From assembly GCA_964016885.1 (NCBI GenBank), contig OZ024757.1, positions 16,430,001 to 16,494,000 of the forward strand: a stretch of DNA of 64,000 bases, read 5' to 3'. The notes under the pieces are model-generated. The model made no database searches and was not told the DNA's origin. It was given only the letters and a program-made list of their open reading frames with translations. Position numbers and translations under genes: made by a program. This document shows, piece after piece, positions 13,822 to 46,822 of the stretch. The stretch is from Eledone cirrhosa (taxonomy: Eukaryota). Position 1 is the first letter of the stretch. Every line of letters starts with the position of its first letter.

Positions 13822-14064
13822 TCAATCCGGAGCTTTGTAGTTATGTAAGAGGTGTCTCCAGACGTGTGGACAACGTGTGAAGAATTCATTTCTCGTGTTT
13901 AGGCAATCACTATTGCGTAATCTCTTTAGAATATTTATTCGTTCATCAATACATAGTCCACACGACGGATTGCCCCTTGCGTATGGCTTGGACTTTGTGA
14001 TGGCTTTCCATTGAATGGAGTAGTCTATACTTGAGTCCTTGAGGGACCATACGTGACTATCGAG
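13822..14064 (-). pseudogene. PLE GIY-YIG endonuclease C-terminal fragment
   Basis: SHVWSLKD..YSIQWKAITKSKPY...CGLCIDERINIL...LNTRNEFFTRCPH, homologous to 44779-45348; the N-terminal part of the listed ORF is only the inverted UTR. Confidence 0.85.
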
Positions 14065-14216
14065 TTTTTTCTTATCAACTAGAAACTTTCGGACTTTCGC
14101 AGTTATCTCCCTTACACCTCTCGCACGCAATTTAGTATTTCCTGTGTGAAGTGATCGTTTCTGCGCATATGCATTCGTACGGTTGCCCTTTCTGTTCCGT
14201 ATAACCATGTCCATTA

Positions 14217-14254
14217 CGAGCTGAGGATCCGCTAAGGTGAAACAATTGTTCTCG
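14217..14254 (+). ncRNA. Minimal type I hammerhead ribozyme (mirror copy on minus strand ~13616-13653)
   Basis: CGAG-CTGAGGA-tccgctaaggt-GAAA-CAATTG-TT|CTCG. Confidence 0.75.
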
Positions 14255-14349
14255 GTATGGTGAACTAACTGTTGTGTAACCACCTCTACTTAACTTGTCC
14301 CATGGACTGAGTGCTCTACCACTACGGATATTACCTTTCAGTGTTCTAC

Positions 14350-31916: not shown

Positions 31917-31921
<5 letters not shown>

Positions 31922-32440
31922 AATTAAGTTAAAAATGTACATCCACATATGTATACTGAAATACTAGTATGCATATGAATACACACACGTGTACATATGT
32001 AGATGTACCGAGTTTTCACTGGTCACTTTACTGTGAGTGTCCAGCTATTCTGTATGTAGACACACAGACAAACCGGTTCTTAGAGTCATACTGGTTTTTG
32101 AGGAAACACCTTTCCTCTATTCTCCAGAAAGCCAGACAAGGAATATTGGACTAGTTTCGATGTTGTTACATCTCATCAGCAATATTTACCTATCTTCCGG
32201 CTTCTCTAGAGAATCGTGAAAGCACATATCGTTATATGCTTTTTCTATGAAAATTAGTAGTGGGCAGACCAATTTGCATAGAGCGTGAGTACGTACCGGT
32301 TCAACGGAGACGATAAAAACAAATAACGAAACGAAATTAAATTTCGTTTCGTTTGTAACTCACTTTTGTATGACTGGCGCTTAAACAATTAAGTTAAAAA
32401 TGTACATCCACATATGTATACTGAAATACTAGTATGCATA
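31917..32440 (-). mobile_element. Retrozyme-like unit: 465-bp period, ~59-bp terminal redundancy, one internal hammerhead
   Basis: Direct repeats 31917-31975 and 32382-32440; hammerhead at 32142-32186. Confidence 0.6.
32142..32186 (-). ncRNA. Canonical minimal type I hammerhead ribozyme
   Basis: Minus strand: AATATTG-CTGATGA-GATGT aaca ACATC-GAAA-CTAG-TC|CAATATT; stems I and II pair perfectly. Confidence 0.88.
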
Positions 32441-32567
32441 CAAAGACGGTGTGGTAAGAACTAGGAAAATACTCGAGACTTAGGGTAGCAGAGTGGGTAA
32501 TAGGAAAAGATTCAGGACGCCGACGGCTGAGCTCCGGCCGTTTCGACAGTTAGATCCGAAGTTCGGA
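32441..32567 (-). mobile_element. P1-variant PLE terminus
   Basis: Homologous to 10231-10370. Confidence 0.7.
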
Positions 32568-33532: not shown

Positions 33533-33590
<58 letters not shown>

Positions 33591-33593
<3 letters not shown>

Positions 33594-34375
33594 TATGAAG
33601 AGAGAAGAAACATTTAGATATAATTAGTAATAAAATGTATCATACCTAAACTGCTCCTAAATTCTTCGACTACGTAGTTTCGTGGCATAAACAAAAACAA
33701 TATATCATAAAGATATAGAGTCCTTGCGAGGTCTGCCGACTTATCAAGAGGATACCTCATTTTACTAGTCTCAAGAACGCGTCTACACGACGTGAGAAAG
33801 AATCCCAAAAGGCGGAGGGGGAGATAGTCACGCGATATAACGGTCGAGAAACAGAGCTAAGCCTCTTATAACCCCGAAGAAAATACCACGGAGGCGGAGG
33901 GGGTATTTATATCGAGGCCGTAGAAGAGGTGGTGAAGAAGGCGAGAAGTATGAGTAATGGAAGCCTTCCAGCTGTCCCCACACTTCAAAGATTGCTCGAC
34001 CAGAGGGAGTTATTAACAATATAATTAGAAACACACAGATACATGCGGACACACACATATATACATGAATGCATCCGCACCCAACTGTGAGTTAAGGGTG
34101 CCAACTTCACCGATGTTGCTCAATGAATGACTGGGACAGACCAATTCAGTTGAACTAGACTGAACCAGTATCAGAGTTAAAAATACATTATGAAGAGAGA
34201 AGAAACATTTAGATATAATTAGTAATAAAATGTATCATACCTAAACTGCTCCTAAATTCCTCGTCTACGTAGTTTCGTGGCATAAACAAAAACAATATAT
34301 CATAAAGATATAGAGTCCTTGCGAGGTCTGCCGACTTATCAAGAGGATACCTCATTTTACTAGTCTCAAGAACGC

Positions 34376-34380
<5 letters not shown>
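33591..34380 (-). mobile_element. Retrozyme-like or tandem-pLTR element: 195-bp direct repeats (period 595) each with a U3-A8 hammerhead
   Basis: Repeats 33591-33785 and 34186-34380; minus strand TCCTC-TTGATAA...GAAA-CTACGTAG-TC|GA(A/G)GA; (TA)n flanks; TATAAATA on minus at 33911-33904. Confidence 0.7.
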
Positions 34381-34469
<89 letters not shown>

Positions 34470-34774
34470 TTGAGGTTGGTAATGGCACATGGAATATATA
34501 AGAGACAGAGTACTTTTTTGTGAAAAAACATATAATTTTATAAGGTAAGGAAAGAATAAAGGGTATAAAAAATGACCGGTTTCGATGTTTGAAAAGATGG
34601 TTTTTGCAGACCCATCGAAACCGGTCATTTTTTATACCCTTTATTCTTTCCTTACCTTATAAAATTATATGTTTTTTCACAAAAAAGTACTCTGTCTCTT
34701 ATATATTCCATGTGCCATTACCAACCTCAATGTTCTCTATAACCTTCGTTTTGTGTAGAAACTTACACTTTTCA
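34470..34774. mobile_element. Fold-back insertion with ~120-bp near-perfect arms and tail
   Basis: Arms truncated at CATC-GAAA-CCGG-TC (3' half of a hammerhead); tail 34731-34774. Confidence 0.8.
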
Positions 34775-34941
34775 TATATATATATATATATATATATAAT
34801 ATTTTTCTTATGCTTCTTCCGCCTTTGGTATCTTTTCTTATATAAATGTTGATACTTATGCTTACTTCTCATATTATGTATCCTCCTAATGTTCTTATGA
34901 CAAACCTCTGATATTATATTTGTGTTTCAACCTGTATCATA

Positions 34942-42875: not shown

Positions 42876-46822
<3,947 letters not shown>

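What the first reader, a model, noticed from the sequence alone, without database searches (positions are those of the whole stretch)
33591..34380. 595-bp-period unit with two hammerheads and an internal TATA box
Seen: 195-bp direct repeats, each with a TTGATAA/GAAA hammerhead, around 400 bp of non-coding sequence with TATAAATA pointing toward the downstream ribozyme. One copy has a stem I mismatch; the other has GAC instead of GTC. Inference: the ancestral double cleavage would release a 595-nt monomer (retrozyme or non-autonomous PLE with tandem pLTRs). The palindromic stem III loop TACGTA would allow dimeric folding.
Basis: partly seen in the sequence, partly recalled or inferred. Interest (0 to 1): 0.7.

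Follow-up and report, generated by a model that had tools for sequence, protein, structure and literature searches.

The report
Two-ended hammerhead retrozyme, Penelope-mobilised
This is one damaged copy of a young, non-coding 595-base jumping repeat that carries a hammerhead self-cutting RNA motif and sits thousands of times in TA microsatellites of an animal genome; its back-to-back insertions end once at each of two fixed sites, which suggests that a Penelope-type retrotransposon enzyme likely copies one RNA from both cut DNA ends.

Summary
The hammerhead 22-mer occurs 5,731 times in the genome. The core is invariant, and both lesions in this copy are private decay. Copies sit in (TA)n and end at one of two fixed points, 80 or 245 nt after the cleavage site. 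All 61 inverted insertions with both ends at these points use one of each, never the same one twice. An ORF-bearing RT-GIY-YIG Penelope-like family in the same genome follows the same rule (21 of 22). The two arms share one haplotype and are often not nested, which favours priming from both target strands on one RNA. Variants fixed in all units are enriched for A>G (10/29 against 3/154), consistent with an edited sense RNA passing through a monomer, likely a circle. No RNA data were available, so cleavage and circles are untested. The TATA promoter is unresolved and the partner is not identified. Verdict: new member of the animal non-LTR retrozymes (non-autonomous PLEs). The scan noted this two-ended pattern earlier in other families.

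The parts
33588..34380 (-). Whole insertion: 1.33 tandem copies of the 595-nt unit (q1-595 plus q1-198; q1 = 34380), direct (not inverted), ending at the short (S) site
33668..34262 (-). Predicted 595-nt monomer between the two cleavage sites; no long ORF; folds strongly as a circle
   Evidence: sequence; family-majority circle -183 kcal/mol versus shuffles -136 +/- 6.6, z -7.2
34258..34347 (-). Upstream type I hammerhead (U3-A8 core 34342-34336, GAAA 34276-34273); GAC instead of GTC at 34265-34263, a private lesion predicted to block cleavage
   Evidence: (1 of 311 units)
33663..33752 (-). Downstream type I hammerhead (core 33747-33741); GTC intact; private helix I mismatch at 33665
   Evidence: (1 of 312 units)
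33588..33600 (-). S end (q193-198, about 80 nt after the cleavage site): the 3' end used by this copy, running into (TA)n; inferred reverse-transcription start
34192..34262 (-). Hairpin just 5' of the S site; it takes up the helix I 3' strand, so the ribozyme is predicted not to form in the folded monomer
   Evidence: z -4.6, 0 of 200 shuffles as good
34018..34030 (-). T end (q362-363, about 245 nt after the cleavage site): second fixed 3' end of the family, internal in this copy; S-to-T distance (the PLE 'tail') is 165 nt
34030..34093 (-). Hairpin just 5' of the T site
   Evidence: z -5.05, 0 of 200 shuffles as good
33904..33911 (-). TATAAATA (q470-477); promoter role unresolved; lies in a predicted hairpin spanning about 33857-33923
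   Evidence: hairpin z only -1.55
33535..33590 (.). (TA)n target, 3' flank
34379..34428 (.). (TA)n target, 5' flank

Best explanation
This is a decayed 1.33-unit copy of a young non-coding tandem retroelement (thousands of copies, hammerhead in every unit, inserted in TA repeats) that is likely mobilised in trans by a Penelope-like RT-GIY-YIG protein, which likely primes two cDNAs on one sense RNA, often a predicted circular monomer. Steps: (1) Tandem loci are transcribed (inferred; promoter unresolved). (2) Hammerheads would cut at GUC, best as dimers through the helix III palindrome, and the 595-nt monomer would be ligated (inferred from ribozyme conservation and from published retrozymes). 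(3) The enzyme would nick both strands of (TA)n, and each 3' end would prime on a short AU stretch just 3' of a hairpin, one at site S and one at site T (fixed ends and their pairing are shown; priming is inferred). (4) Each cDNA would run for up to several units. If both survive they join head-to-head with 0-3 nt overlap (shown as genomic structure); if one is lost, a direct copy like this one results. (5) This copy later took two point mutations that are predicted to stop monomer release (mutations shown, effect inferred).
For: Copy number and youth. Fixed ends: direct copies end at S (34) or T (25), 2 elsewhere, 1 at a locus edge; inverted copies with both ends at these sites are S+T in 61 of 61 (40, 19, 2); independent choice would give about half same/same. 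The ORF-bearing family L067 (RT plus GIY-YIG; 10,850 hammerhead matches; same U3-A8 core, same TA target) ends at cut+82 and cut+150 and pairs them in 21 of 22 inverted copies. One template: arms mismatch at 28 of 1,358 polymorphic comparisons versus 19.9% when shuffled; 5 of 88 versus 42% in L067. Not fold-back: 15 of 40 arm pairs are not nested, and nesting (25) equals random pairing (26.4). No fixed 5' end in inverted arms (132 ends, chi-square p 0.49; 1 at the cut site), whereas L067 arms pile up 30-60 nt upstream of the core (20 of 43). Monomer bottleneck: 29 private variants are fixed in all units of an insertion, up to 8 units across both arms, and a 30-nt deletion is in both units of L195/196. 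RNA-level imprint: A>G is 10 of 29 all-unit versus 3 of 154 single-unit variants, p 5e-7. Ribozyme under selection: 0 of 72 subfamily sites in q99-125 (3.3 expected, p 0.035) with a normal singleton rate (22 versus 22.5). Literature: two internal RT starts, both strands nicked and extended, predicted dimer (PMC11167929); retrozyme circles (PMC7229834).
Against: No direct RNA evidence was obtained. No autonomous element with extended similarity to the unit was found (0 of 43 GIY-YIG loci, apart from an adjacent insertion in L062; best local scores 20-23), so the partner is unproven. 5' ends of direct copies are not uniform: 22 of 60 fall in q460-530 (7.2 expected) and 8 of 60 in q488-510 (2.3 expected), many on arms longer than one unit, which fits uncleaved read-through transcripts from the TATA region. 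In vitro the anole PLE used uncleaved RNA and non-homologous priming, and only 1 of 9 Xenopus retrozyme dimers cleaved. The A>G test rests on 10 events, and the replication set could not test it (1 all-unit variant). Some shared variants are mixed within insertions (61 cases versus 269 fixed, many being indel-placement artefacts). The hammerhead region alone is not more stable than shuffles (z -0.6, -0.8). Seven inverted copies were not counted: 4 had an end elsewhere and 3 ran off the locus edge.
Confidence: 0.68

Rival explanations
1. Same element and same two-site priming, but the template is an uncleaved linear read-through transcript of a tandem locus, started near the internal TATA box. 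The hammerhead is marginal, and arrays grow by template jumps or DNA-level expansion.
For: Direct-copy 5' ends are enriched at q460-530 and q488-510, also among those without TA homology (8 of 47). The ORF-bearing relative clearly uses uncleaved transcripts that start about 30 nt after a TATA box. Uncleaved RNA was the main substrate in vitro. The roughly 20-kb array L031/L032/L193 shows repeating unit variants typical of DNA-level duplication.
Against: Inverted arms show no excess at q488-510 (5 of 132, 5.1 expected). The cluster straddles the TATA box and coincides with a predicted hairpin. The TATA box is mutated in 27 of 74 insertions. Linear multimers should give single-unit A>G changes, which are rare (3 of 154). 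Private variants fixed in up to 8 units need a monomer stage. The ribozyme is under purifying selection.
Confidence: 0.22
2. Inverted copies arise by one priming event followed by cDNA fold-back or self-priming (possibly on an antisense template), with the endonuclease trimming the second end at the other site.
For: Proposed for PLE palindromes in PMC3846280; the tail is ascribed to EN-mediated resolution in PMC8557442. A few junctions are exact palindromes (L124, L126), and short L067 insertions are nested by construction.
Against: 15 of 40 arm pairs are not nested, including L086 and L114, which contain no full repeat unit that could have been gained or lost. L192 of the ORF-bearing family is also not nested. 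Either end occurs alone in direct copies. The heritable bias is A>G on the sense strand, not T>C (10:6 versus 3:21, p 0.002).
Confidence: 0.06
3. A satellite or minisatellite spread at the DNA level (unequal crossover, DNA circles), whose hammerhead is a relic of an old pLTR.
For: Long arrays exist and one shows higher-order duplication. Li et al. discuss local tandem amplification of pLTRs.
Against: Dispersed insertions into (TA)n with two fixed 3' ends, 5' truncation and head-to-head inversion identical to an ORF-bearing PLE; strand-asymmetric A>G; conserved ribozyme.
Confidence: 0.04

Closest known systems
Metazoan non-LTR retrozymes (Cervera and De la Pena 2020, PMC7229834; passages read)
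   Same: Non-coding tandem repeats with one type I hammerhead per unit, GC below 50%, predicted self-paired circle, co-existing with PLEs; dimeric cleavage described for amphibian members.
   Different: Unit is 590-595 nt (170-400 nt there). The core is the U3-A8 variant. Inverted insertions, microsatellite targeting and fixed paired ends were not found in the passages read ('inverted' and 'microsatellite' have 0 occurrences in the main text). Circles were shown there and are untested here.
Animal retrozymes as non-autonomous PLE derivatives (Li, Clavereau, Pollet 2026, bioRxiv 10.64898/2026.07.22.740005; parts 1-3 of 5 read)
   Same: Meets their definition at family level (tandem units each with a type I hammerhead); length within their 51-972 bp range; PLEs co-occur.
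   Different: They link retrozymes to PLEs by pLTR sequence similarity. Here no such similarity was found, and the link is the shared insertion footprint. They give no analysis of ends or priming.
Anolis Poseidon PLE PAc (Frangieh et al. 2024, PMC11167929; parts 1-2 of 4 read)
   Same: Two internal RT starts downstream of the hammerhead that define the tail; first start 85-92 nt after the cut there (computed from their figures) and 80 nt here; AT-rich target; both strands nicked and extended; predicted dimer.
   Different: PAc is autonomous. Its two starts are adjacent (30-40 nt) versus 165 nt apart here. It primes without homology and shows no strand preference of start site, whereas here the ends have AT homology to the target and are strictly paired.
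Canonical EN+ PLE insertion structure; non-autonomous Chlamys elements (Craig et al. 2021, PMC8557442, passages; Arkhipova et al. 2013, PMC3846280, passages)
   Same: [quoted passage not shown] L067 has the CX2-5CxxC linker of Neptune/Nematis (read from the protein).
   Different: The tail is 165 nt (68 nt in L067) rather than 30-40. The one-end rule is counted here as strict. Chlamys elements mostly lack hammerheads. Clade placement of L067 by tree was not done.
Minimal PLE hammerheads (Cervera and De la Pena 2014, PMC4209133; parts 1-2 of 4 read)
   Same: U3-A8 covariation, 5-bp helix I, long bulged helix II, palindromic helix III, dimer model, circle-template proposal.
   Different: Helix III can form 3 bp as a monomer and loop II is about 46 nt and structured.
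L1 twin priming (recalled; only search listings seen)
   Same: Two target-primed cDNAs on one RNA give a head-to-head inversion with microhomology at the joint.
   Different: In L1 the second primer anneals at variable internal sites and arms do not overlap (recalled); here both sites are fixed and arms overlap in sequence.

Membership tests
Metazoan non-LTR retrozyme | Head-to-tail tandem units, each with a type I hammerhead | tested here: met
Metazoan non-LTR retrozyme | Non-coding; no LTR layout | tested here: met
   Stops in the first frame submitted; no open frame of 150 aa over 33588-34380; variable 5' ends. PBS/PPT not searched.
Metazoan non-LTR retrozyme | Low GC and highly self-paired monomer | tested here: met
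   GC 249 of 595; circle z -7.2
Metazoan non-LTR retrozyme | Ribozyme self-cleaves | not testable with these tools
   Core invariant and under selection; needs an in vitro assay; this copy is predicted inactive
Metazoan non-LTR retrozyme | Expressed as linear and circular monomer RNA | tested here: inconclusive
   No RNA holder listed; contigs closing on themselves do not separate tandem DNA from circles; only indirect genomic evidence
Non-autonomous Penelope-like element | Fixed 3' end with optional tail, 5' truncation, partial tandems, head-to-head inversion | tested here: met
Non-autonomous Penelope-like element | AT-rich or microsatellite target | tested here: met
   3' flanks are (TA)n in nearly all loci shown
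Non-autonomous Penelope-like element | Co-resident ORF-bearing EN+ PLE with the same footprint | tested here: met
   L067 family:
Non-autonomous Penelope-like element | Sequence similarity to the pLTR of an autonomous partner | tested here: inconclusive
   None among 43 of 10,595 GIY-YIG candidates examined; only short end motifs resemble L067; search far from exhaustive
Type I hammerhead ribozyme | Core with 3-8 pair, GAAA, NUH, three helices | tested here: met
   Family majority fits within 1.1 kcal/mol of the free MFE; U3-A8 variant described in PLEs; not detected by Rfam
Plant-type LTR retrozyme | Type III hammerheads in two LTRs around a unique interior | tested here: not met
   Type I motif, tandem units

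The most novel reading that the evidence does not exclude
Penelope-type integration is obligately two-primed. One enzyme complex uses two non-equivalent start sites on one sense RNA, one per target strand, which explains PLE tails and head-to-head inversions. This retrozyme feeds it a hammerhead-made circle that is rolled from both sites, and A-to-I edits of that circle are written back into the genome as the main source of new subfamilies.
Probability: 0.4. Interest if true: 0.78.

Novelty: new member of a known kind. Interest (0 to 1): 0.5.

Why it matters
The element class is known. Its value is as a large, young natural record of PLE integration. How PLEs make tails and inverted repeats, whether they use a sense or antisense template, and whether retrozyme circles are really reverse-transcribed are stated as open in PMC8557442, PMC3846280 and the 2026 preprint. 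The strict S+T pairing in both a non-coding family and an ORF-bearing PLE of one genome gives exact, testable predictions for the published in vitro PLE system. The A>G imprint, if it holds in thousands of copies, would fix the template polarity and show RNA editing shaping a mobile element's heritable sequence. I found no paper applying twin priming to PLEs or retrozymes in searches, but the library lacks most subscription papers and no supplements were read.

Tried and rejected
Rfam scan: 0 hits. Sequencing runs: no RNA holder listed; 6 contig runs of unknown kind from 3 studies. Laying four of them showed a contig joint from unit end to unit start in each, which tandem DNA gives as well, so it says nothing about circles. 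A pile-up of 5' ends at the cleavage site: not seen (1 of 132 inverted arms and 1 of 60 direct at q117-122; q119-149 was 9 of 86, p 0.035, but 11 of 132, p 0.08, in the larger set). The idea that this copy's two ribozyme lesions reflect selection: rejected, since singleton rate in q99-125 is as expected (22 versus 22.5). Both arms stopping at the same position modulo 595: 8 of 40, p 0.10. Search for a partner by a shorter-helix-II pattern: 3 hits, all deletion variants of this family. An intron starting after an ATG at q26-34 was considered by eye; spliced frames are short and there were no RNA data, so it was dropped. Replication of the A>G excess in 42 further insertions was uninformative, because those loci were picked for near identity to a query (1 all-unit variant; 0 A>G of 37 single-unit variants). 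ADAR neighbour preference was weak (5' U 16 of 31 versus 51 of 133); flanks of A>G sites are more paired (p 0.03). Rows dropped before counts: loci that overlapped other loci, L104 (same junctions as L101), hits under 88% identity, the diverged sister pieces in L093 and L146, L231/L232 (edge) for 5' ends. L180 looked T+T but is two separate short insertions; the first pair in L191 looked T+T but BLAST shows an S end plus a separate fragment. The protein search with L067 gave 296 relatives, few with names, and did not place its clade.

Full report
Observation. The window lies in a 3.0-Gb animal genome rich in TA microsatellites. From recall this resembles an octopus-type cephalopod genome; no call names it. 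On the minus strand, 34380-33588 holds a 198-nt direct repeat with period 595 and two differences, each copy carrying a type I hammerhead with the core TTGATAA. That core is the U3-A8 covariant of the usual C3-G8 pair, reported in PLE hammerheads. The upstream copy has GAC at the cleavage triplet, which by the established NUH rule should not cut; the downstream copy has a mismatch in the 5-bp helix I. TATAAATA sits at 33911-33904. Both flanks are (TA)n. I number the unit q1-595 from 34380; the cut falls after q118.

It is a large young family. The spacer gave 1,436 candidates, and all 40 scored were full length at 99-100%. A 22-mer of the core has 5,731 exact matches against 0 for the control. 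The first 100 matches fell in 56 clusters, which suggests roughly 3,000 insertions (my extrapolation). I examined three sets: best hits to the spacer, all pattern hits in the first 64 Mb of contig C1, and best hits to two 591-nt subfamily units; 128 insertions entered the variant analysis. Copies are head-to-tail arrays of 590-595-nt units, so the window locus is a 1.33-mer, not an LTR element. GTC is in 310 of 311 units and the intact helix I base in 308 of 312. This copy's lesions are private and occur at the background rate. None of 72 subfamily-defining sites falls in q99-125 (3.3 expected, p 0.035) or q33-51 (the latter was partly selected by my pattern), so propagating lineages keep the ribozyme. 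The helix III palindrome pairs between two units at -12.9 kcal/mol versus +1.5 as a hairpin, which supports the dimer idea on energy only.

Two fixed ends, used as a pair. 3' ends fall at q198 (S, 80 nt after the cut) or q362-363 (T, 245 nt after), each just 3' of a strong hairpin and running into (TA)n. A target-like base replaces an element base in 15 of 65 terminal S ends and 0 of 132 internal S sites, as expected if the TA primer overlaps the RNA. Direct copies end at S 34 times and T 25 times, with 2 elsewhere and 1 at a locus edge. Inverted copies are head-to-head, and every one with both ends at these sites has one S and one T: 40 of 40, 19 of 19 in the replication set, and 2 more. Four had an end elsewhere and three were cut by the locus edge. 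With free choice about half should be same/same.

The same rule in an ORF-bearing PLE. The genome has 10,595 GIY-YIG candidates. L067 holds a 938-aa open frame with RT and GIY-YIG, a cysteine linker of the Neptune/Nematis type, and U3-A8 hammerheads 4,979 nt apart; its hammerhead has 10,850 exact matches. Its ends are cut+82 and cut+150 into (TA)n, paired S+T in 21 of 22 inverted copies, the other having a shortened arm. The end motifs resemble those of the 595-nt unit (a pyrimidine tract then TATA-like at S; TTTCTAA then TATAT at T), but there is no extended similarity. L067 is therefore a candidate partner or a relative of it, not a proven one.

One template, two primers. Arms of one insertion mismatch at 28 of 1,358 polymorphic comparisons versus 19.9% after shuffling, and 5 of 88 versus 42% in L067. 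Fold-back of one cDNA requires one arm to lie within the other; 15 of 40 pairs do not, and nesting is no commoner than in random pairs (25 versus 26.4). Junctions overlap by 2 nt or more in 16 of 43 cases versus 18% expected (p 0.003). This fits two cDNAs primed on one RNA and joined at their 3' ends. The anole PLE protein nicks and extends both strands, starts at two internal sites and is predicted to be a dimer. [quoted passage not shown]

Circle or linear template. For a circle: 5' ends of 132 inverted arms are even around the unit (p 0.49), with no pile-up at the cut, whereas L067 arms stop sharply about 30 nt after a TATA box, 20 of 43 within 30-60 nt of the core. Private variants are fixed in all units of an insertion 29 times, in up to 8 units across both arms, and a 30-nt deletion is in both units of one locus. 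The family-majority monomer folds at z -7.2 as a circle, with helix I taken up by the S hairpin. Against: direct copies have 22 of 60 5' ends in q460-530 and 8 of 60 in q488-510, which fits transcripts starting near the TATA box; it also coincides with a weak predicted hairpin (z -1.55), and the TATA box is mutated in 27 of 74 insertions. Both templates may be used. One 20-kb array shows later DNA-level duplication.

A>G imprint. Variants fixed in all units of a single insertion are A>G in 10 of 29 cases, against 3 of 154 single-unit variants (p 5e-7); A>G to T>C is 10:6 versus 3:21 (p 0.002). Subfamily sites show 21 A>G and 10 T>C of 72, polarised by majority. Errors of the RT on a circle would be single-unit, so the change precedes copying. 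A-to-I editing of a structured sense RNA is the simplest cause (inferred); polymerase error or unsampled source loci remain possible, and the replication set could not test it.

RNA. No RNA holder was listed, and contigs cannot separate tandem DNA from circles. Cleavage, circularisation and expression are untested.

Comparison and verdict. It meets the structural definition of animal non-LTR retrozymes and has the insertion footprint of EN+ PLEs; it is a new member of a known kind, with a long (165-nt) tail. Papers were read as stated under Closest known systems; PMC9977147 was seen as passages and added only that autonomous and non-autonomous PLE pairs are active in Chlamydomonas. No supplements were read; figures of end structures there could bear on novelty. 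After my own analysis I found that this scan had noted the same two-ended pattern in other families; those notes are unchecked and are not counted as support. Interest 0.5: ordinary class, but a quantitative footprint that makes the PLE priming question directly testable.

Noticed in passing
window 34467-34776: Palindromic insertion of another U3-A8 hammerhead family right beside the finding (126-nt arms, 99% complementary). The right arm ends about 150 nt after the cut in (TA)n, like the L067 T end; the left arm ends about 112 nt after the cut in (AG)n.
   Followed up: partly
window 31917-32447: Partial tandem with 66-nt direct repeats, period 465, and a canonical-core hammerhead on the minus strand at 32143-32185; probably another retrozyme-like family.
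   Followed up: no
window 50635-50868, 52225-52291, 52764-52825, 60781-61037: Further hammerhead-like motifs, two as head-to-head pairs, of other PLE-like families.
   Followed up: no
window 42955-46730: Decayed PLE on the minus strand: frames with RT-like, cysteine-linker and GIY-YIG-like motifs (read by eye), with near-identical hammerhead-like motifs in inverted orientation at both ends. A similar nuclease-like fragment lies at 13822-14289.
   Followed up: no
L067 (G000:C1:145870500-145877000) and L150-L192: Young ORF-bearing PLE family with 10,850 hammerhead matches; many insertions are tiny palindromes whose arms both stop about 43 nt before the core, marking a transcription start and showing uncleaved RNA as template.
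   Followed up: yes
L193, L031, L032 (G000:C1:193,981,004-194,001,325): About 20-kb inverted S+T insertion of the 595-nt unit; the long arm has about 30 units with repeating variant patterns, i.e. a satellite in the making.
   Followed up: partly
L093 834-1130; L146 1042-1336; L095: Diverged sister family (72-94% identity) inserted next to members of this family, as short inverted copies ending at the equivalents of S and T.
   Followed up: partly
L195/L196, L194: Copies with about 30 nt deleted from hammerhead loop II, in both units of L195/196 (period 565).
   Followed up: partly
runs X4 and X5 (coded organisms B and C): Each holds a single self-closing contig of the 590-nt variant at depth about 8 with no other variants; run kind unknown, could be trace DNA or RNA.
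   Followed up: no
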